Of a stretch of DNA of 43,788 nucleotides, positions 2,890 to 38,071 are shown piece after piece. The stretch's first letter is position 1. Every line of letters begins with the position of its first letter. This stretch comes from a virus. The stretch lies in the IMG/VR virus record IMGVR_UViG_3300045988_075868. One strand, 5' to 3'. Made by a program: the position numbers and the translations under genes. The notes under the pieces are model-generated. The model was not told the origin of the DNA. It saw only the letters and a list, made by a program, of their open reading frames with translations, and did no database searches.

Positions 2890-3206
2890 ACTGTAATCAC
2901 CCCGTCTCCAGATACATATACCAAATTGGTCGTATGGCCACTCCGAGTGTATACCTCCGAATTTGCAACCACTTCTAACGCTCCGCTTAATGCGTCTTGT
3001 CTTACATCTCCTATCATTAGTGGAAGGATAAAAGAGTTTTTAGCTACTGATATAGTAAATTCTGTAGAGTTAAGTGGGGCATAGCCTTTTGTTCCGTCCG
3101 AAGTAATATAATGTAGACCATAATCAGGGCTTGATATTGTATCACGGCTTTTTATAGTAACTGTAGCAGTTTCTCCACCGCCCTGCACCACTGGATTCAG
3201 TATCAT
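2886..3206 (-). CDS. Small beta-rich protein, paralog 1 (N-terminus MILNPVVQGGG)
   Basis: Shares its first 11 residues with 2578..2889. It is preceded by a 117-nt AT-rich spacer after the tail-fibre gene. Confidence 0.65.
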   Translation of the reverse strand: MILNPVVQGGGETATVTIKSRDTISSPDYGLHYITSDGTKGYAPLNSTEFTISVAKNSFILPLMIGDVRQDALSGALEVVANSEVYTRSGHTTNLVYVSGDGVITV

Positions 3207-21048: not shown

Positions 21049-21443
21049 TATTTCCTCGATTCATACATATCACGCAGTAACGGGTGAATCTCTTGCCTTT
21101 GCTCCGTATTCGCTGTAAATTTGTCAATCAGCGTTCCCAGTGCAGTGGTAATCTGCGCTGGACTGGCCTCCGCCAGCTTCTCTGGGTCGTTCAGGGCGGC
21201 CAGCCCTTTTCCGATAATCTCGCAGACAACTCCCTTTTGACTGTCCATATACGCCAGAATGTCGGCGGTGTTCTCGTCTTTTTTCTGATTGCACATTTCT
21301 GCAATATCTGCATTTCCTTGCACAATTTTCTTCACCGTGTTAAGAGAAACGCCATTTACTTTTGCTGTTGCGTTATAACTGCCCAACTGTACATAGTCAG
21401 CAATAATTTTCTTTTTCTGCTTATCCGTCAGCCGTGCAGCCAT
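21048..21443 (-). CDS. terS: Terminase small subunit
   Basis: N-terminal HTH-like MAARLTDKQKKKIIADYVQLGSYNATAKVNGVSLNTVKKIV, immediately upstream of terL. Confidence 0.65.
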   Translation of the reverse strand: MAARLTDKQKKKIIADYVQLGSYNATAKVNGVSLNTVKKIVQGNADIAEMCNQKKDENTADILAYMDSQKGVVCEIIGKGLAALNDPEKLAEASPAQITTALGTLIDKFTANTEQRQEIHPLLRDMYESRK

Positions 21444-21480
21444 AACACCACCTTCCTGTCATACAAATCCGCCCCCATCT

Positions 21481-22101
21481 CCCGCAACGAGGCACGGCAT
21501 ATATACCCCTTCTGGGGTATGTTGCGGGTTTGGTCAGGCTTTCCGGAGGCCTGCTCTGTAAGGACTTGCGTCCTGGTGCCACCGCCCGCCTCATACGGCG
21601 AGGAGCGGCATATGTGCGCTTCCCGCTTAATTGTCACACCCTTATGTGCGGCTGGTCATTCCGTCCTGGTACACATAAGGCAGTTTTCAGCGGGATAGCG
21701 CCGGGGCAGGTCATAGCTGCCGCCGCTTCCGCCTCCATGACAGGCGGGTGCCCTTTACCCTTCTCCGGTGCATAATTAGGCACTGTAAGCCCCCGGTATA
21801 GTGTCTTTCCACAGTCATAGGAACCTGCAAGATTTGAACTTGCGACCTCTACCCCTTTCGGTTAAGTGACGGATTCCGCCCCGTCCCAGGTTCCGCATGC
21901 CCCCGTCTTTCCGGGGTGTCAGCTCCTTGGCCTTTGGAGCAAGCTTCATTTAGTGCCCGCAAGGGGCAATGTTTCGCCGCATGGAGGGTGCGACCCTCCG
22001 GCCCGGATGTGCGGCGTATGTACCCCGGCAAGCGCCGGGGTTGAGGAGGAAATAGAAGAAGCGAATGGGAGCGCAGGGGCATACGCTCCCACACTCCCAT
22101 T
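21481..22101 (-). ncRNA. Candidate large structured non-coding RNA (possibly ROOL/GOLLD-like) or a highly structured late-operon leader
   Basis: No credible CDS across 733 bp. Many GC-rich nested helices are present (coordinates in the findings). An embedded tRNA-like element fixes the strand. Boundaries are approximate. Confidence 0.5.
21819..21894 (-). ncRNA. tRNA-like cloverleaf with an aberrant anticodon arm (probably non-decoding)
   Basis: Minus-strand features: acceptor GGAACCT/AGGTTCC (7 bp), D arm GACG-GGGCGGAATC-CGTC, T arm GCAAG-TTCAAAT-CTTGC. The anticodon region forms only an imperfect helix or a CC-GAAA-GG hairpin, has no U33, has an 8-nt variable region, and has no encoded CCA. 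Confidence 0.55.
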
Positions 22102-22124
22102 GTCGCATAGATGGCACTTTAATT

Positions 22125-22140
22125 TTCACAGATATGTGAA
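22125..22140. promoter_or_regulatory. Palindrome TTCACA-GATA-TGTGAA in the AT-rich stretch upstream of the structured region
   Basis: Perfect 6-bp inverted repeat seen in the sequence. A role as an operator for late transcription is inferred only. Confidence 0.3.
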
Positions 22141-22176
22141 TACAACAAAATTTTTCATGAGATGATTAAAGGTTTA

Positions 22177-22404
22177 CTATTTCTTTGGCGGCCTGTTTGG
22201 CCAGTCCGTCCTGCCTAATAAGTAGTCAATCGAAACATCGAAATAATCAGCCAACCCCTCCAGAGCCTTCCTTGATGGCTCAATTTCTCCCCGCTCTAAT
22301 CTTCCAATTGCATTTCTGTCCAGGTCGCAACACTCAGATAAAGCGCACATTTTCAGCCTATTTCTCTCCCTCAGCCTCCTCAGCCTCTCCGGGAACTCGT
22401 TCAA
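22177..22404 (-). CDS. XRE-family HTH protein
   Basis: TTG start 7 nt after GGAGGG. Sequence ERLRRLRERNRLKMCALSECCDLDRNAIGRLERGE is a typical HTH_3 pattern. Confidence 0.7.
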   Translation of the reverse strand: MNEFPERLRRLRERNRLKMCALSECCDLDRNAIGRLERGEIEPSRKALEGLADYFDVSIDYLLGRTDWPNRPPKK

Positions 22405-22407
22405 GGG

Positions 22408-22632
22408 CTATCCCTCCCTATGTCTTTTCTCCTGCCTGATCCAATACCGGATGGTGGAGGAGTCTATCCCCGTATCGTTGGCGATGGAATAGATGCTCTC
22501 TCCGTTCCTATTCCGCTCTACGATCTCCCGCTTGTATTCACGGCTGTACTTGCGGTGGGTCGTGCCGGCTCCCTCAAGGCAGTTAACACAGTCCAGAAGT
22601 GTGCAGTTAAGGCATTGCTCAATCTCACTCAT
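22408..22632 (-). CDS. Small HTH protein with an N-terminal Cys cluster
   Basis: CLNCTLLDCVNC followed by NGESIYSIANDTGIDSSTIRYWIRQ, which resembles a resolvase/IS3-type HTH. Confidence 0.6.
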   Translation of the reverse strand: MSEIEQCLNCTLLDCVNCLEGAGTTHRKYSREYKREIVERNRNGESIYSIANDTGIDSSTIRYWIRQEKRHREG

Positions 22633-24335: not shown

Positions 24336-24648
24336 GCTCAATCTCCTTCATCTGCATAAAAAAGTTTTCGTCATCTTCGTCAAAAATGCAAAAACCCAAT
24401 TTTCTGTATAAGGACAAAGCGGGAGTGTTCTCTTTATCAACTGATAACTTTTTCCCGCCAAGAAGAGCCGAAAATTGTAATAAATCTTTTCCCAAACCAT
24501 TTTTTCGATATGCAGGAGATACATATACCCCACATATCCACTTAACCCCTTTTTCTTGCTTGATTTCGACAGTAGCCACAAGTTCGTCCTTGTCGTACCA
24601 GAAAAACTGATTGTGATTATTGCAGAAATCAAAATCACCCAGCCTCAT
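24328..24648 (-). CDS. Small GNAT-family N-acetyltransferase
   Basis: Motif A VSPAYRKNGLGKDLL. Start moved to ATG 24648, preceded by AAGGGGGACGAGC. The segment is low-GC. Confidence 0.65.
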   Translation of the reverse strand: MRLGDFDFCNNHNQFFWYDKDELVATVEIKQEKGVKWICGVYVSPAYRKNGLGKDLLQFSALLGGKKLSVDKENTPALSLYRKLGFCIFDEDDENFFMQMKEIEHE

Positions 24649-25138
24649 GCTCGTCCCCCTTATCCATGCGGGCACCGTGTCTATGTACTTTCTCTGTAAG
24701 TGCTCTTTCGTGGCCCCAGCCACGCCTTGTGATGCGATCCCTTAAAGTGTGTGGGTTTATACCCAGTCTTTCACTCCAAACTGTAAGAGGGAGTGTTTCA
24801 TTCCCCATCGTCAGGAAAATTGTATTTTTCCTATTGTTAGTTTGTTCTTTTGGCGTTGCCCATCGGCAATTATCGGGGGAATACCCTTTTGTCCCGTCTA
24901 TTCTGTCAAGAGTAAGGCCGGGGCGATATCCACTTTCTTCTGCCCATTTTTTGAAGTTCCTTATATCATGCCATTCTTCACAAACCGCCACGCCACTTCC
25001 GCCATACTGAGGATAACTTTCAACCTTTTTGCAATAGCACCTATCCATCATACAACGATAATTCACGTACCACGGTTCGTAGTAATATCCGTGCTTGAAC
25101 CCCTTCTTGTTTTTGTAGTGTTCTTTTAACTCAGCCAT
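24635..25138 (-). CDS. HNH-type endonuclease with a C-terminal HTH-like region
   Basis: LTLDRIDGTKGYSPDNCRWATPKEQTNNRKN is a typical HNH_3 signature. Confidence 0.7.
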   Translation of the reverse strand: MAELKEHYKNKKGFKHGYYYEPWYVNYRCMMDRCYCKKVESYPQYGGSGVAVCEEWHDIRNFKKWAEESGYRPGLTLDRIDGTKGYSPDNCRWATPKEQTNNRKNTIFLTMGNETLPLTVWSERLGINPHTLRDRITRRGWGHERALTEKVHRHGARMDKGDEHEAG

Positions 25139-25346
25139 TCTTCATCCCCTCCAGCGCGGCCTCAGCCTCGGCACGGGTTAGGAAAACTGTTCTCCCCATA
25201 AATGCAAAATCGCTTTTTGTGCATTTCTTTCTGATACATAGCACATATCTGGTTGTTTCCTCTTTCGGCCTATACGCTCCGCACGGCCATGTCAACCCAG
25301 AGCCTGTCCGGCAGTCATCGTATTTTTTGCAGTTCTGGCAGTTCAT
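25131..25346 (-). CDS. Small Cys-rich hypothetical protein
   Basis: GGAGAGGAGG lies upstream of the ATG. Gene ends overlap on both sides. Confidence 0.55.
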   Translation of the reverse strand: MNCQNCKKYDDCRTGSGLTWPCGAYRPKEETTRYVLCIRKKCTKSDFAFMGRTVFLTRAEAEAALEGMKNG

Positions 25347-25732
25347 GTGTCCTCCTCTCCCTCCGGCGGGCGGCGGTAGACCGGACCAACCTGCTCATAC
25401 CAATCATGCGCAGAGCATTTTTCACCATCTGGGAACGTAAACAGTGGTACAAAAGGATTTTTGGTGACCAATACCCAACAGTTTATTTCTGGCGCAAAAG
25501 CCGCTTTTCCGTCCATCTCCAGCAGCTCCTCCAGCGTCAGCGGCTCGTTGCTGGGCTGGGGGAGGGTGGGCGCATACTCTACATACTCGATTTTCCCCTT
25601 ATTGACTGTTGGTGTCCACCTGTCGGCGTTTTCAAGACTGGTATAAATTCGGGGGCGTAGTTGACTATCTAAAATGGCTTTCCCATTTTGAAACGCTATA
25701 AAAATATGTTGCCCTTTTTCAAGATTCCGCAT
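25343..25732 (-). CDS. Hypothetical protein
   Basis: AAGGAG lies 10 nt before the ATG. Confidence 0.55.
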   Translation of the reverse strand: MRNLEKGQHIFIAFQNGKAILDSQLRPRIYTSLENADRWTPTVNKGKIEYVEYAPTLPQPSNEPLTLEELLEMDGKAAFAPEINCWVLVTKNPFVPLFTFPDGEKCSAHDWYEQVGPVYRRPPEGEEDT

Positions 25733-25735
25733 CGT

Positions 25736-26641
25736 TCAGCGTCTCCTTTTTGGATCATACTTTTTGAAATCTGGCTCACTTTTGAATATAAAACGATTAT
25801 TGCACCACCGCTGTAGCATCCTCACCTCACTCGGGGCGTTTGGCTTGTCGTAAATCATCACATATGGGTCGTACCCCATGTCCCGCAATGTATAGATGCG
25901 GTATAGGTTCTCTTCCATGGTGGTGTCATAGCCGGTCAGGCAGTATACCGTCCCGTATGCCCCATTCACCTTGCGTCTGGCCTTGGCCGAATATAGCCGT
26001 AGTCCCTTCAAAACGGCATCCGTTTCGTGCATATAGTCCCAGGCGAAATGAATGTCTTTTAACCTTATCTGGTTGATCGCCGCAATGTTTTGCTCTGTCA
26101 GCAATCGGCAATCCAATCCCTGGTTGATATCTACCCACGCTTGGCTGTCTGCAAGCTGGCCCAGCAAGCCCATGTGCTGTGGGCAAGCCAATATATTGGG
26201 GTCCATCAACACGATGTTTTTCTGATCCCTCCACCATTCAGATAGATCAGCGACTTTGACCGATCGCCGCCCCTCTTTTCCGGACACAATACAGAAATGA
26301 CATCCTCGAGGACAACCACGGGTAAGAAAGCCATAGGCTGTGTCTTTCGTTAGCTTTGGGTATAAAGAGTAATCAGGATATATGTGCTCGATTTCATCCG
26401 GCAGTTTATTATCCAGCCCATAGCCCGTTCCACCTTTGATGATCTCCGTGGCATTGACCGGCTCCGGGATGTCTGGACTGTATGTATCATCAAACACCTT
26501 GCTCATGTACACTCGGTCATACTGTTCCCAGCCCCACCACCATTCCACGCTATCCCCCTGCGCCTTGTGCCATGCGGAGAGTTTCATGAGGGCCAAATTC
26601 GGGAAGTTGTGCCCATCTACATCAATCAGCCCGATTTTCAA
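25736..26641 (-). CDS. Radical SAM protein (phage type, unknown substrate)
   Basis: CxxxCxxC cluster GCPRGCHFC. TTG start 4 nt after GGGAGGGG. Confidence 0.7.
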   Translation of the reverse strand: MKIGLIDVDGHNFPNLALMKLSAWHKAQGDSVEWWWGWEQYDRVYMSKVFDDTYSPDIPEPVNATEIIKGGTGYGLDNKLPDEIEHIYPDYSLYPKLTKDTAYGFLTRGCPRGCHFCIVSGKEGRRSVKVADLSEWWRDQKNIVLMDPNILACPQHMGLLGQLADSQAWVDINQGLDCRLLTEQNIAAINQIRLKDIHFAWDYMHETDAVLKGLRLYSAKARRKVNGAYGTVYCLTGYDTTMEENLYRIYTLRDMGYDPYVMIYDKPNAPSEVRMLQRWCNNRFIFKSEPDFKKYDPKRRR

Positions 26642-37502: not shown

Positions 37503-37895
37503 GTGCCGGAAAATTTCAATAAGCTATTTTGCGTCGGAGAGTATGTTACAGAGTTCAATTTAGCAACCGGACAGCATCTTCCTTGTGGGCCAATTTACCA
37601 ATCTTATGGTCTAATGGCACATATTCAGAAAAGACACCCCTCCGAGGTTTCAAATCTATCTTATGTGCCGGAGATCATATCTTCTCCTGATTATATTGGA
37701 AAGCACCCTAAAGAGCCGGATAGTATTGAACTAGTGAAAATTTTGAGCGGCAACATAATGGTCTGTATAAAATTGGATAGGGATGAAAATTACCTGTTTG
37801 TTGCAAGTGTTTTCGAGATTAGTGAAGGAAAATTGAAAAACCGCATTAACAGTGGGAGATTAAAAAAGTTGACAAATCACAAAATGTGTGATTAA
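37503..37895 (+). CDS. PBECR-like (Barnase-EndoU-ColicinE5/D-RelE-like) putative nuclease
   Basis: AHIQKRHPSEV...YVPEIISSPDYIGKHPKEPDSIELVK...VASVFEIS fits my recollection of the PBECR pattern. GTG start after GAGGGGGAAAG. Low GC. Confidence 0.45.
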   Translation: MPENFNKLFCVGEYVTEFNLATGQHLPCGPIYQSYGLMAHIQKRHPSEVSNLSYVPEIISSPDYIGKHPKEPDSIELVKILSGNIMVCIKLDRDENYLFVASVFEISEGKLKNRINSGRLKKLTNHKMCD

Positions 37896-38071
37896 ATGAA
37901 GTTGCAAAAGCATAGACTGTATTGGGTGTTGAGGTCGGAAATGGCTCCCGACACTCCCTTGTATGAGGATAGAACGGGCATCTATCACCTATATGGGTAA
38001 TGCGTGAGTGCCGACACGCCGCAAGGGAACCTGAGATGTAGGATACGCCGCCCTACCAACATCCAAAACAC

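What the first reader, a model, noticed from the sequence alone, without database searches (positions are those of the whole stretch)
21444..22176. 733-bp structured non-coding region with an embedded tRNA-like cloverleaf between the early and late operons
This genome is tightly packed, with most genes abutting or overlapping. These 733 bp nevertheless hold only Arg/Gly/Pro-rich ORFs open on both strands, none with an SD sequence.

The DNA is full of GC-rich nested helices:
- CCCGCAAC (21481-88) pairs with GTTGCGGG (21521-28), enclosing ATACCCC-TTCT-GGGGTAT (21503-20).
- CCTTATGTG (21640-48) pairs with CACATAAGG (21672-80).
- GCCGCA (21976-81) pairs with TGCGGC (22010-15), enclosing GGAGGG-TGCGA-CCCTCC (21983-99).
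- CCCCGGC-AAGC-GCCGGGG (22023-40).
- GGGAGCG (22067-73) can pair with CGCTCCC (22084-90). This is mutually exclusive with AATGGGAG (22064-71) pairing with CTCCCATT (22094-22101).

The minus strand from 21894 to 21819 folds as a tRNA-like cloverleaf. It has a perfect 7-bp acceptor stem, a D arm with GG, and a canonical TTCAAAT T-loop. The anticodon arm is non-canonical, and there is no U33 and no CCA.

Large ornate RNAs of the ROOL and GOLLD classes are known from phages and prophages of Firmicutes and are often next to or fused with tRNAs. This locus fits that description in size, context and tRNA association. An elaborate antitermination leader for the late operon is the alternative.
Basis: partly seen in the sequence, partly recalled or inferred. 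Interest (0 to 1): 0.8.

Follow-up and report, generated by a model that had tools for sequence, protein, structure and literature searches.

The report
Phage late-gene leader RNA island
The 733-bp gap in this gut-bacterium prophage holds the late-gene promoter and a long leader built from separate conserved folded RNA pieces, several of which imitate parts of tRNA; two pieces match no family in the public RNA family library (Rfam 15).

Summary
Every helix is at the stated coordinates, the region is non-coding, and ARAGORN calls a tRNA-like cloverleaf at 21894-21819 (minus strand).

It is not ROOL, GOLLD, tmRNA, a T-box or an intron: Rfam 15 gives no such hit. It is also not one large RNA.

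More than 250 related viral contigs and two Flavonifractor phages show a collinear mosaic of independent modules on the minus strand:
- **Promoter.** A palindromic operator sits exactly 28 nt upstream of a -10-like hexamer. The palindrome co-varies with the recognition helix of the small HTH protein encoded just upstream.
- **5' hairpin A.**
- **tRNA-derived elements B, T, G and H3.** G is a near-invariant 32-nt acceptor/T-arm-like minihelix ending in an encoded ACCA.
- **A ~208-nt RNA (D-E).** It has a covariation-supported pseudoknot, two hairpins with fully complementary 7-nt loops, and a widespread "E2" stem. E2 almost always sits a few bases upstream of a tRNA or a tRNA-like element.

In relatives, genuine tRNAs occupy the same slots.

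Best reading, inferred: a late-promoter transcript that host tRNA-processing enzymes cut at tRNA-like marks. This would release the D-E RNA and leave a hairpin-capped terminase mRNA. D-E and G match no Rfam family.

The parts
22125..22140 (.). Palindromic operator TTCACA-tatc-TGTGAA, the inferred binding site of the HTH protein encoded at 22404-22177.
   Evidence: In 22 of about 30 distinct configurations in relatives, a perfect palindrome is centred exactly 28 nt upstream of the -10-like hexamer. Eight half-site types map one-to-one onto eight recognition-helix variants of the upstream HTH protein.
22099..22104 (-). -10-like hexamer GACAAT, preceded by TGC (extended -10-like). The predicted transcription start is near 22092 (inferred).
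   Evidence: The hexamer consensus across relatives is nAnAAT (GACAAT, GAAAAT, TAAAAT, AACAAT, TAGAAT). No -35 consensus was found. The start site is inferred, not measured.
22065..22100 (-). Hairpin A. The long form pairs AUGGGAGUGUGGG with CCUGCGCUCCCAU. From the predicted start site only the short form can form (GGGAGCG 22090-22084 with CGCUCCC 22073-22067).
   Evidence: Folds at -25.8 kcal/mol with z = -5.3 for the long form and -18.4 kcal/mol with z = -4.5 for the short form. Three pairs are G-U on the minus strand. The Castelnaud version keeps the hairpin with a different sequence.
22043..22064 (-). Pyrimidine-rich spacer containing the conserved UUCCUCCU.
   Evidence: Conserved in all types of the A module while its surroundings vary. 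Function unknown.
22016..22040 (-). Hairpin A2 (CCCCGGCGCUUGCCGGGG, 22040-22023), followed by U 22022 and the leader ACAUAC (22021-16).
   Evidence: Folds at -17.6 kcal/mol with z = -4.2. Other types replace it with a different hairpin at the same place.
21975..22015 (-). Module B, a reduced tRNA-like element. It has an acceptor-like stem (GCCGCA/UGCGGC) and a T-arm-like hairpin (GGAGGG-UCGCA-CCCUCC). The window copy lacks 18 nt that most relatives carry.
   Evidence: Relatives have a 58-nt form with an extra hairpin, GCCC..GGGC, which covaries to CCCA..UGGG. It follows an AUAU/AUAC leader, as real tRNAs do.
21918..21974 (-). Module C, two small hairpins (UGCCC..GGGCA and GCUCC..GGAGC).
   Evidence: Conserved as a block in 44 loci. 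The fold is not better than shuffles (z = -0.6). This is the weakest module.
21895..21917 (-). Hairpin CCCCG-GAAAGA-CGGGG, which travels with the tRNA-like element, followed by GCAUGC.
   Evidence: Present or absent together with T, as a 100-nt indel relative to most relatives.
21819..21894 (-). Module T, the tRNA-like cloverleaf. ARAGORN labels it 'tRNA-Arg(CCG)', which is probably meaningless.
   Evidence: ARAGORN. Rfam tRNA model 24.0 bits, below the gathering score of 29. There are 12 distinct variants. All keep A33 and a mismatched (A-G or G-G) anticodon stem. An acceptor change of C5 to U5 keeps the pair with G. Some copies end in an encoded ACCA.
21749..21818 (-). Module D: a hairpin GUG-GAAAGA-CAC plus an H-type pseudoknot (CCGG 21796-93 with CCGG 21768-65, crossed by GUGCC 21783-79 with GGCAC 21752-48).
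   Evidence: Compensatory changes occur in both pseudoknot stems. Stem d2 is 100% paired, with GC->AU and GC->CG changes. Stem d3 shows CG->UA and UA->CG changes.
21702..21748 (-). Module E1: two hairpins whose 7-nt loops, GUCAUGG (21741-35) and CUAUGAC (21716-10), are fully complementary.
   Evidence: Stem 1 covaries (CCGCCU/AGGCGG to CCGACA/UGUCGG). The loop pair is seen as G-U, A-U or G-C, never A-C. The loops are almost invariant, so covariation evidence for loop-loop pairing is thin.
21616..21701 (-). Module E2: a long stem (GCGCU/AGCGC and UCCCGCU/AGCGGGA) around a conserved asymmetric internal loop (GAAAAC opposite UGACAAUUA) and a variable hairpin.
   Evidence: Alignment A2 of 55 distinct sequences is 87.8% paired against 32-56% in slid controls, with 73 cells changed on both sides and 0 of 500 shuffles reaching that. 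Covariance model R1 scores 83.5 bits in the window, with one copy. The variable insert is 11-83 nt.
21610..21615 (-). Leader ACAUAU, ending in U at position -1, directly before the minihelix.
   Evidence: The same leader precedes genuine tRNAs after E2 in relatives.
21574..21609 (-). Module G, a minihelix GCCGCUC-CUCGCC-GUAUGA-GGCGGG-C-GGUGGC followed by an encoded ACCA. It forms 7+6 bp with a conserved C-C mismatch.
   Evidence: Near-invariant in more than 130 loci, with over 15 different 5' and over 20 different 3' contexts. Conservation starts at AUAY and stops after ACCA. Folds at -23.2 kcal/mol with z = -3.9 and a free ACCA tail. As plus-strand RNA it reaches only -14.5 kcal/mol.
21469..21573 (-). 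Module H: hairpins (AGGAC..GUCCU, CAGGC..GCCUG, AUACCCC-AGAA-GGGGUAU), then AUAUAU, then element H3 (GCCGUGCCUC...GGGGGCGG, 21498-21469).
Evidence: Hairpin h2 keeps its pairing with a different sequence in L054.
21443..21456 (-). Ribosome-binding site GGAAGGUGGUG and start codon of terS, the first late gene.
   Evidence: In many relatives the ribosome-binding site follows directly after the ACCA of module G.

Best explanation
The region is the late-operon control and leader segment of a temperate siphovirus-like prophage of gut Clostridia.

**Step 1 (inferred from covariation).** The small XRE-type HTH protein encoded just upstream binds its own palindrome, centred about 40.5 bp before the predicted start site. 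There it activates a promoter that has a -10 but no -35.

**Step 2 (shown).** The ~650-nt leader transcribed on the minus strand is not one RNA fold. It is an island of separate, individually conserved RNA modules. They comprise a 5' hairpin (A), four tRNA-derived elements (B, T, G, H3), and a ~208-nt pseudoknotted RNA (D-E1-E2).

**Step 3 (inferred).** The tRNA-derived elements act as punctuation for the host tRNA-processing enzymes.
- RNase P would cut after the AUAU/AUAC leaders at G+1 of B, G and H3.
- RNase Z or exonucleases would trim the 3' side of T.
- This would release the D-E RNA (about 21818-21611) as a stable small RNA.
- The terminase mRNA would be left with a base-paired minihelix at its 5' end, which would protect it.

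The function of the released D-E RNA is unknown. Its two complementary 7-nt loops suggest self-association.
For: **Shown**
- Module mosaic with fixed order.
- RNA-level covariation in E2 and in D-E1, including the pseudoknot.
- No coding signal and minus-strand asymmetry.
- Genuine tRNAs occupy the same slots in relatives, behind the same ACAUAU leader. About 105 of 120 distinct contexts downstream of E2 have an AYAU|G junction: 11 are ARAGORN tRNAs and 26 are the G minihelix.
- G has the features of a model RNase P substrate: U-1, G+1, a 7+6-bp helix and a free ACCA. Its conservation stops exactly at those ends.
- Conservation of D starts at UGAC directly after three different upstream elements.
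- In many relatives the ribosome-binding site and ATG follow G directly.

**Promoter**
- Fixed 28-nt spacing between the palindrome and the hexamer.
- One-to-one match between half-site and HTH recognition helix in 8 classes.
- No intrinsic terminator or sigma-70 consensus promoter on the minus strand of the region.
Against: - No transcript data: the start site, the processing sites and the stability of any product are all inferred.
- RNase P or RNase Z cleavage was not tested.
- G is almost invariant, so its hairpin has little covariation support. Such strict sequence conservation, including a C-C mismatch and a G-U/U-U site, suggests a sequence-specific partner, which simple punctuation would not need.
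- B and H3 lack a CCA, and T is preceded by GCAUGC rather than AUAU.
- The conserved 3' strand of the E2 internal loop (GTGTGACAAT) looks like an extended -10. Part of that conservation could therefore be promoter DNA.
- In some relatives E2 is followed by a terminator or directly by a gene, so D-E-type RNAs do not always need tRNA-like marks.
- RNAalifold proposes an alternative partner for one pseudoknot strand.
Confidence: 0.5

Rival explanations
1. The whole leader is one large ornate RNA of the ROOL/GOLLD kind. It would fold and act as a single unit, with variable peripheral domains and an embedded tRNA-like domain.
For: - Its size (~650 nt), prophage context and tRNA association match what is described for ROOL and GOLLD (PMC5737381).
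- The folding z-score is strong.
- The modules keep a fixed order.
Against: - Rfam shows no ROOL or GOLLD match even at E<=10.
- Each module occurs without the others: E2 alone in 20 loci, G alone, and A-G-H.
- Genes of 50-212 aa lie between modules in relatives.
- No long-range helix is supported. The MFE long-range pairs are replaced by local pseudoknot partners.
Confidence: 0.08
2. The region is a cis-acting regulatory leader of the late operon. Candidate mechanisms are processive antitermination (put- or EAR-like), attenuation at hairpin A, or control of terS translation. In the last case the CCUCC-rich spacer or the minihelix would mask or expose the ribosome-binding site.
For: - Its position lies between the late promoter and terS.
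- Hairpin A has two alternative pairings and a U-rich tail.
- UUCCUCCU is conserved.
- G often abuts the ribosome-binding site.
Against: - There is no intrinsic terminator in the window's leader to antiterminate.
- The same modules occur inside tRNA arrays, and before terminators, far from any terminase gene.
- There is no match to the EAR family or to other leader families in Rfam.
Confidence: 0.15
3. The tRNA-like modules (T, B, G, H3) are decoys or sponges. They would imitate tRNA acceptor/T arms to soak up, or be preferentially attacked by, host tRNA-targeting defence enzymes, or to occupy tRNA-handling enzymes. This would extend the known use of phage tRNAs to evade tRNA-cleaving defences.
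For: - G is strictly conserved in sequence, including its non-Watson-Crick sites and free ACCA, as expected for recognition by a specific protein.
- T keeps non-canonical features under selection.
- Phage tRNAs are known to counter tRNA-cleaving retron and other effectors (PMC11555353, abstract as listed).
Against: - No defence system or target was identified here.
- Known anticodon nucleases need an anticodon loop, which G, B and H3 lack.
- This reading is compatible with, rather than exclusive of, the processing model.
Confidence: 0.15
4. Conservation reflects DNA-level functions. Candidates are a packaging (cos/pac) site next to the terminase genes, recombination linkers that promote module exchange, or internal promoters (the extended -10-like TGTGACAAT inside E2).
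For: - The region is adjacent to terS/terL.
- Block boundaries are sharp, as expected for recombination junctions.
- The word TGnGACAAT is shared by the late promoter and E2. In short E2 variants CTGAAA lies 17 nt upstream of it.
Against: - G-U pairs make the hairpins strand-specific.
- Compensatory changes include G-U intermediates in E2 and D.
- G and E2 occur with several unrelated terS types, and in tRNA arrays away from terminase genes.
- The conserved ends of G coincide with tRNA-like mature ends.
Confidence: 0.07
5. The tRNA-like pieces are decaying remnants of a former phage tRNA cluster and have no present function.
For: - Relatives carry intact tRNAs in the same places.
- The window's B is an 18-nt-deleted version of the common form.
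- T scores below the tRNA gathering threshold.
Against: - G is near-identical across more than 130 loci whose flanks and neighbouring genes differ.
- T's odd features are the same in all 12 variants.
- Pseudogenes would drift.
Confidence: 0.05

Closest known systems
ROOL (RF03087) and GOLLD (RF01998) large ornate RNAs of phages and prophages
   Same: Both are non-coding, highly structured and encoded in prophages of Firmicutes. Both are frequently next to, and probably co-transcribed with, tRNAs, and have no known function (PMC5737381). Both are reported to form homo-oligomers (PMC12286853 abstract), which the complementary loops of E1 could also allow.
   Different: There is no sequence or structure match. 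Here the ~650 nt are a string of independent modules rather than one conserved multi-domain fold. The largest coherent unit is ~208 nt.
Stable small RNAs in the phage T4 tRNA gene cluster (species 1 and 2; own knowledge), and other tRNA-punctuated transcripts such as MALAT1-mascRNA (own knowledge)
   Same: Non-tRNA structured RNAs lie between tRNA or tRNA-like elements on one precursor. Their ends would be made by the tRNA-processing enzymes.
   Different: Processing here is only inferred. There is no sequence relationship. In the window the punctuation marks are reduced tRNA mimics rather than working tRNAs.
Acceptor/T-arm minihelix model substrates of bacterial RNase P (own knowledge; general RNase P reviews are listed but were not read for this point)
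   Same: G has a ~12-13-bp continuous helix, a hairpin loop, U at -1, G at +1 and a single-stranded ACCA 3' end.
   Different: G is a natural, strictly conserved phage sequence. It has a 6-nt loop that is not a T loop, a conserved C-C mismatch and a variable G-U/U-U site. Cleavage has not been tested.
drum, int-alpA and skipping-rope RNAs (Rfam; Weinberg et al. 2017)
   Same: All are candidate structured RNAs of gut Clostridia and their phages, with unknown function. In relatives, drum and int-alpA sit in the very same non-coding islands. skipping-rope is elsewhere in this window.
   Different: None of them matches inside 21444-22176. D-E and G are different motifs.
Class II activator-dependent promoters (operator centred near -41.5, overlapping the -35 region; own knowledge)
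   Same: A palindrome at a fixed distance places its centre near -40.5. There is a -10-like hexamer and no -35 consensus. A cognate dimeric HTH protein is encoded next to it.
   Different: The start site, the binding and the sign of regulation (activation or repression) are not measured.
phi29 pRNA (own knowledge)
   Same: It is a phage RNA encoded near packaging genes whose complementary hairpin loops pair between molecules to build a ring.
   Different: There is no homology. Loop-loop pairing of E1 is unproven and could be intramolecular or absent. No link to the packaging motor is shown.

Membership tests
ROOL RNA (RF03087) | Match to the Rfam covariance model at or above the gathering score. 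| tested here: not met
   There is no hit at the gathering score in the whole window, and none at E<=10 in 21300-22400.
ROOL / GOLLD | One conserved multi-domain fold of ~580-800 nt whose core is always present together. | tested here: not met
   The modules occur separately and in about 70 different combinations. Genes are inserted between modules in relatives.
ROOL / GOLLD | Prophage or phage context and proximity to tRNAs. | tested here: met
   Prophage genes flank the region. tRNAs lie between the same modules in relatives.
GOLLD RNA (RF01998) | Match to the Rfam covariance model at or above the gathering score. | tested here: not met
   No hit.
Canonical tRNA (RF00005), for element T | Covariance-model score at or above 29 bits. 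| tested here: not met
   T scores 24.0 bits (E = 0.0022 on 101 nt). Genuine tRNAs in relatives score 45-70 bits.
Canonical tRNA, for element T | A 7-bp acceptor stem and a 5-bp T stem with a 7-nt T loop. | tested here: met
   GGAACCU/AGGUUCC and GCAAG-UUCAAAU-CUUGC. A C5 to U5 change keeps the pair.
Canonical tRNA, for element T | U33 and a fully paired 5-bp anticodon stem with a 7-nt loop. | tested here: not met
   All 12 variants have A33 and an A-G or G-G mismatch in the stem.
Canonical tRNA, for element T | Aminoacylation and decoding. | not testable with these tools
   This needs charging or translation assays.
tmRNA | A tRNA-like domain plus a tag reading frame, as detected by ARAGORN or Rfam. 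| tested here: not met
   ARAGORN finds no tmRNA in the window or in 83 sequences. Rfam finds none.
T-box leader, group I / group II introns | Match to the Rfam models. | tested here: not met
   No hit at E<=10.
RNase P minihelix-type substrate, for element G | A continuous ~12-bp acceptor/T-like helix closed by a loop. | tested here: met
   The helix is 7+6 bp around one C-C mismatch, at -23.2 kcal/mol.
RNase P minihelix-type substrate, for element G | U at -1, G at +1 and a single-stranded RCCA 3' end. | tested here: met
   The sequence reads AUAU|G...GGC-ACCA in nearly all copies.
RNase P minihelix-type substrate, for element G | Cleavage by RNase P at G+1. | not testable with these tools
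   This needs an in-vitro cleavage assay or in-vivo end mapping.
Class II activator-dependent promoter | A dyad-symmetric site at a fixed position overlapping -35 (about -41.5), with a -10 element. | tested here: inconclusive
   The 28-nt spacing to an nAnAAT hexamer is fixed in 22 configurations, and the protein co-varies with the operator. The start site itself is only inferred.
Protein-coding gene (small ORFs in the region) | Third-position substitution bias and frame-preserving indels. | tested here: not met
   None of the six ORFs shows the bias. The terS and HTH controls do. The plus-strand 24-aa ORF is in a different frame in the second A type (read).

The most novel reading that the evidence does not exclude
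The ~208-nt D-E RNA is a new class of phage non-coding RNA. Host RNase P/Z would cut it out of the late leader at tRNA-mimic punctuation marks. It would then self-assemble into dimers or rings through its two fully complementary 7-nt hairpin loops, as recently seen for ROOL, GOLLD and OLE. The near-invariant ACCA-ended minihelix G would be a dedicated, sequence-specifically recognised tRNA acceptor-arm mimic, acting as a decoy or as a handle for a host or phage protein.
Probability: 0.15. Interest if true: 0.85.

Novelty: new variant of a known kind. Interest (0 to 1): 0.62.

Why it matters
Phage and prophage non-coding islands next to tRNAs are where the largest unexplained bacterial RNAs (GOLLD, ROOL) were found, and nobody knows what they do.

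This locus offers a smaller, modular and widespread example, seen in hundreds of viral contigs. Its parts are sharply delimited and have predicted ends:
- a pseudoknotted ~208-nt RNA with self-complementary loops;
- a near-invariant 32-nt tRNA acceptor-arm mimic followed by an encoded ACCA;
- a degenerate cloverleaf.

All three sit downstream of what looks like a simple activator-operator-promoter cassette.

This makes several questions directly testable. Do phages use tRNA mimics as RNA-processing marks? Do such RNAs oligomerise? How do these Clostridia phages switch on late genes?

It also warns annotators on two points. ARAGORN's 'tRNA-Arg(CCG)' call here is doubtful. The 'hypothetical proteins' annotated over the homologous stretch in Flavonifractor phages Castelnaud and Chenonceau are probably not genes.

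Tried and rejected
1. **ROOL, GOLLD, tmRNA, T-box and introns.** Rejected by Rfam at the gathering score and at E<=10.
2. **Repeat or diversity-generating element.** No part of the region recurs elsewhere in the window.
3. **Small proteins.** Rejected by codon-position and indel statistics. The plus-strand 24-aa ORF behind GGAGG is in a different frame in the second A type.
4. **Long-range helices of the single-sequence MFE fold.** One example is 21796-87 pairing with 21552-43. These are replaced by local pseudoknot partners that covary.
5. **The hairpin UCACA/UGUGA at 22139-22126 as RNA.** It is better read as a DNA operator.
6. **Genome-collection scan.** The loose G pattern was swamped by chance hits in GC-rich Actinobacteria. 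Only two true hits survived filtering: L216 (an Oscillospiraceae genome assembled from a metagenome) and L278.
7. **K-turn reading of the E2 internal loop.** Considered by eye and dropped, because there are no tandem G-A pairs.
8. **RNase P RNA-like reading of module D (GGAAAGAC...).** Considered and dropped. The resemblance is limited to a few bases, and no RNase P RNA match was listed.
9. **Literature searches.** Searches for a described tRNA-like minihelix or for this motif found nothing specific.
10. **Metagenome scan, structure prediction and the large protein searches.** Not used, because they would not have discriminated between the explanations.
Full report
**Setting**

Nearly all genes of the window run on the minus strand. 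The 733 bp lie between a 75-aa XRE-type helix-turn-helix gene (22404-22177) and the small and large terminase genes (21443-21048 and 21048-19789), which are followed by the portal gene.

The window is a temperate prophage. It carries a CI-like S24 repressor, an integrase and a Fic protein. Its large terminase is about 54% identical to those of Streptococcus and Bacillus siphophages.

The closest DNA relatives of the region are two Flavonifractor plautii phages, Castelnaud and Chenonceau. In both, the homologous stretch also follows a small "transcriptional regulator" gene and precedes the terminase genes. There it is annotated as short hypothetical proteins.

**Check of the observation**

ARAGORN calls a cloverleaf at 21894-21819 on the minus strand.

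Four lines of evidence show the region is real and non-coding:
- **Folding.** It folds better than shuffled sequence, with z = -5.0 on the minus strand and -6.0 on the plus strand.
- **No coding signal.** The six ORFs inside the region show no excess of third-position substitutions, and their indels mostly break the frame. The flanking terS (451/440/1365 by codon position) and HTH gene (69/26/156) behave as genes.
- **No repeats.** The region has no repeat elsewhere in the window.
- **Strand.** G-U pairs make several elements clearly more stable as minus-strand RNA. The energies are G -23.2 against -14.5, T -30.0 against -24.0, and H3 -23.2 against -16.6 kcal/mol. The RNA is therefore read in the direction of the genes.

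**What it is not**

Rfam 15 at the gathering score finds only a skipping-rope RNA elsewhere in the window. A permissive search of 21300-22400 at E<=10 finds nothing relevant: no ROOL, GOLLD, tmRNA, T-box or intron.

The tRNA model scores the cloverleaf at 24.0 bits, below its gathering score of 29. Genuine tRNAs in related loci score 45-70 bits.

**Relatives show a mosaic, not one RNA**

Four exact-pattern scans of the viral contig collection returned more than 250 loci. Mapping the window onto them splits the region into about ten blocks. Their order is essentially always the same: A, A2, B, C, T, D, E1, E2, G, H. They are present in about 70 different combinations. Only the window has all of them.

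In some relatives, small genes (50-212 aa) sit between blocks.

The cloverleaf T, together with a small hairpin, is a 100-nt insertion relative to most relatives.

In other phages, genuine tRNAs (Thr, Ile, Met, Gln, Trp, Gly) lie between the same blocks. So do the known candidate RNAs int-alpA and drum.

The region is thus a non-coding "RNA island" with interchangeable cassettes.

**The upstream end is a promoter with its own regulator**

An alignment of the A block shows a -10-like hexamer directly before hairpin A. The hexamer is GACAAT in the window (22104-22099), and the consensus is nAnAAT. Upstream of it lies a palindrome whose sequence differs between phage types.

In 22 of about 30 distinct configurations, the best perfect palindrome is centred exactly 28 nt before the hexamer.

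The protein encoded immediately upstream is always a member of one small HTH family. Eight variants of its recognition helix correspond one-to-one to eight half-site types. For example, DRNAIGRLERGE goes with TTCACA in the window and in L085. SKNSILRYERDG goes with TTCCCT, and SPDALRKYERGE goes with TCATAA.

A start site 7 nt after the hexamer (about 22092) would put the operator centre near -40.5. The simple scan finds no -35 consensus and no sigma-70-type promoter on this strand.

This geometry is that of an activator-dependent promoter. I infer that the HTH protein is the late-gene activator. The start site, the binding and the sign of regulation are not measured.

From that start, the transcript would begin with the short form of hairpin A (GGGAGCG/CGCUCCC, -18.4 kcal/mol, z = -4.5).

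**tRNA-derived elements**

*G (21609-21574).* G reads GCCGCUC-CUCGCC-GUAUGA-GGCGGG-C-GGUGGC-ACCA. It forms a 7+6-bp helix with one C-C mismatch and a free ACCA tail.
- It is almost invariant in more than 130 loci.
- Those loci have more than 15 unrelated upstream and more than 20 unrelated downstream contexts.
- Conservation begins at AUAY and ends exactly after ACCA.
- A rare variant replaces the inner stem CUCGCC/GGCGGG with CUAUCU/GGAUAU.
- The next gene's ribosome-binding site often follows at once.
- U at -1, G at +1, a ~12-bp helix and RCCA are the features of a minimal RNase P substrate (own knowledge).

*B (22015-21975).* B has an acceptor-like stem and a T-arm-like hairpin. Most relatives have a 58-nt form with one more hairpin, which covaries (GCCC/GGGC to CCCA/UGGG). 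The window copy lacks 18 nt of it.

*H3 (21498-21469).* H3 is a further hairpin behind an AUAUAU leader.

*T.* T exists in 12 variants. All keep A33 and a mismatched "anticodon" stem, while an acceptor change (C5 to U5) preserves pairing. Some copies end in ACCA. T is therefore under selection, but not as an ordinary decoding tRNA. The "Arg-CCG" label should not be trusted.

**The D-E RNA (about 21818-21611)**

*E2.* E2 is a stem (GCGCU/AGCGC plus UCCCGCU/AGCGGGA) around a conserved asymmetric internal loop (GAAAAC opposite UGACAAUUA) and a variable hairpin of 11-83 nt.
- On 55 distinct sequences, 87.8% of cells are paired, against 32-56% when partners are slid.
- 73 cells are changed on both sides, and 0 of 500 shuffles reach the observed values.
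- Examples of compensation are CCCGCU/AGCGGG, CUCGCU/AGCGAG, GCCGCU/AGCGGC and CUCCGCU/AGCGGAG.
- A covariance model built from this alignment finds one copy in the window (83.5 bits). It also hits 38 of 65 loci that had been fetched through the G seed, including a metagenome-assembled Oscillospiraceae genome.

*D.* D contains a hairpin (GUG-GAAAGA-CAC, which becomes GCG/CGC in one lineage) and an H-type pseudoknot. Both pseudoknot stems covary:
- CCGG/CCGG, CCAG/CUGG, CCGGG/CCCGG, CCGA/UCGG and CCCCA/UGGGG for one stem;
- GUGCC/GGCAC, GCGUC/GACGC and GCGCCU/AGGUGC for the other.

On 24 sequences the D-E1 model is 97.2% paired, against 37-45% for slid partners. There are 23 cells changed on both sides, against 5.1 expected, and 0 of 500 shuffles reach that.

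*E1.* E1 has two hairpins whose 7-nt loops, GUCAUGG and CUAUGAC, are complementary over all seven positions. The variants seen are G-U, A-U and G-C at one loop pair, never A-C. The stem of the first hairpin is fully replaced in one lineage (CCGACA/UGUCGG) while the loop is kept. The loops hardly vary, so their pairing is suggested, not proven. With a linker of only 4-12 nt, a 7-bp loop-loop helix is easier to picture between molecules than within one (inference).

RNAalifold, which cannot predict pseudoknots, proposes an alternative partner for one pseudoknot strand. The doubly compensated changes favour the pseudoknot.

**Link between E2 and tRNA-like elements**

There are 120 distinct sequence contexts downstream of E2.
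- About 105 have the same short leader (ACAUAU, CCAAUAU or similar) followed by an element beginning with G.
- Of these, 11 are tRNAs by ARAGORN (more by Rfam), 26 are the G minihelix, and the rest are H3-like or other unknown elements.
- Nine run straight into a ribosome-binding site and ATG.
- A few run into a terminator.

G therefore occupies the slot of a tRNA. Conservation of D starts at UGAC immediately after three different upstream neighbours (the 3' ends of C, T or B). The D-E unit thus has sharp borders on both sides.

**Most likely mechanism (inferred)**

1. The late promoter drives a long precursor.
2. Host RNase P cuts at G+1 of the tRNA-like elements, and the 3' tRNA-processing enzymes cut after T.
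3. The D-E RNA is released as a stable species.
4. The terminase mRNA starts with a base-paired minihelix.

This follows the logic of tRNA-punctuated precursors, such as the phage T4 tRNA cluster with its two stable RNAs, and MALAT1/mascRNA (own knowledge). What D-E then does is unknown.

The strict sequence conservation of G argues that more than a cutting signal is involved. One candidate is a protein that reads the tRNA acceptor arm. Decoy functions against tRNA-directed defences are a live alternative, since phage tRNAs are already known to evade such defences (PMC11555353, abstract as listed).

**Caveats**

- There is no expression data of any kind.
- Most loci were found with exact seeds, so the seeded segments are invariant by construction and the sample is dominated by related viral contigs. 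The host is known only for the two Flavonifractor phages and one Oscillospiraceae genome.
- The genome-collection scan was wasted on a pattern that was too loose.
- Module C and parts of H have weak structural support.
- The E2 internal-loop strand GTGTGACAAT resembles an extended -10. It is the same word as in the late promoter, and in short variants CTGAAA lies 17 nt upstream of it. Some of its conservation could therefore be promoter DNA.

**Novelty and verdict**

The kind of thing is known: phage non-coding islands that mix tRNAs with structured RNAs of unknown function. The D-E RNA, the E2 motif and the ACCA-ended minihelix match no Rfam 15 family, and three full-text searches listed no paper describing such a motif.

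I rate this as a new variant of a known kind, of moderate to high interest. It should not be filed under ROOL or GOLLD, and the cloverleaf should not be annotated as tRNA-Arg.

Noticed in passing
window 37503-38064 (+): A skipping-rope RNA (RF02924, 65.6 bits) at 37924-38064 starts 29 nt after the stop of a PBECR3 (Barnase/EndoU/ColicinE5-D/RelE-like) nuclease gene at 37503-37895. Both lie next to the CI-like repressor gene. This may be an RNA-protein pair.
   Followed up: partly
L002 (Flavonifractor phage Chenonceau) 3429-3498; also L079 4518-4585 and L086 3402-3472: An int-alpA RNA (RF02996) lies in the same non-coding island. In Chenonceau it comes directly after module H.
   Followed up: no
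L311 230-335 and L302 3449-3554: A drum RNA (RF02958, ~72 bits) sits in the same tRNA/E2 arrays. It is preceded by a module (GGUGUGCCGACACAUAGAAA...GUAGAGAC) that replaces E2 after E1 in some gut phages.
   Followed up: no
L002 ~3115-3165: Chenonceau carries a ~50-nt tRNA-like element without an anticodon arm. It has an acceptor stem, a D-like stretch and a T arm (GGAGGUUCGAUUCCUCC), and it ends in UCCA. It sits where the window has T.
   Followed up: no
window 21630-21639 (minus strand), compared with 22099-22107: The conserved 3' strand of the E2 internal loop, GTGTGACAAT, has the form of an extended -10 (TGnGACAAT), as does the late promoter TGCGACAAT. In E2 copies with the shortest insert, CTGAAA lies exactly 17 nt upstream. 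This could be an internal promoter for the downstream tRNA or minihelix.
   Followed up: partly
L303, L316, L329, L350 and more than 30 other loci, directly after E2: An unidentified conserved element, GCGGCAUAGGUGCCCCGUAAGGGGAGACCACAGCGAGUGACGGGG..., follows class-ii E2 behind the same AAUAU leader. ARAGORN does not call it a tRNA.
   Followed up: no
L001 2992-3363 and L002 3002-3485: The 'hypothetical protein' genes annotated by PHANOTATE over the homologous stretch in the two Flavonifractor phages overlap the conserved RNA modules. They are probably not genes.
   Followed up: partly
window 24635-26641 (minus strand): An HNH endonuclease (24635-25138) and a radical-SAM protein (25736-26641, phrog_9298) are among the early genes. 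Their roles were not examined.
   Followed up: no
window 22408-22632 (minus strand): The 74-aa ORF just upstream of the HTH activator candidate has a transposase-type or terS-like HTH (HTH_Tnp_1; weak PHROG hits to small terminase). It could be a second regulator or a packaging-specificity protein.
   Followed up: no
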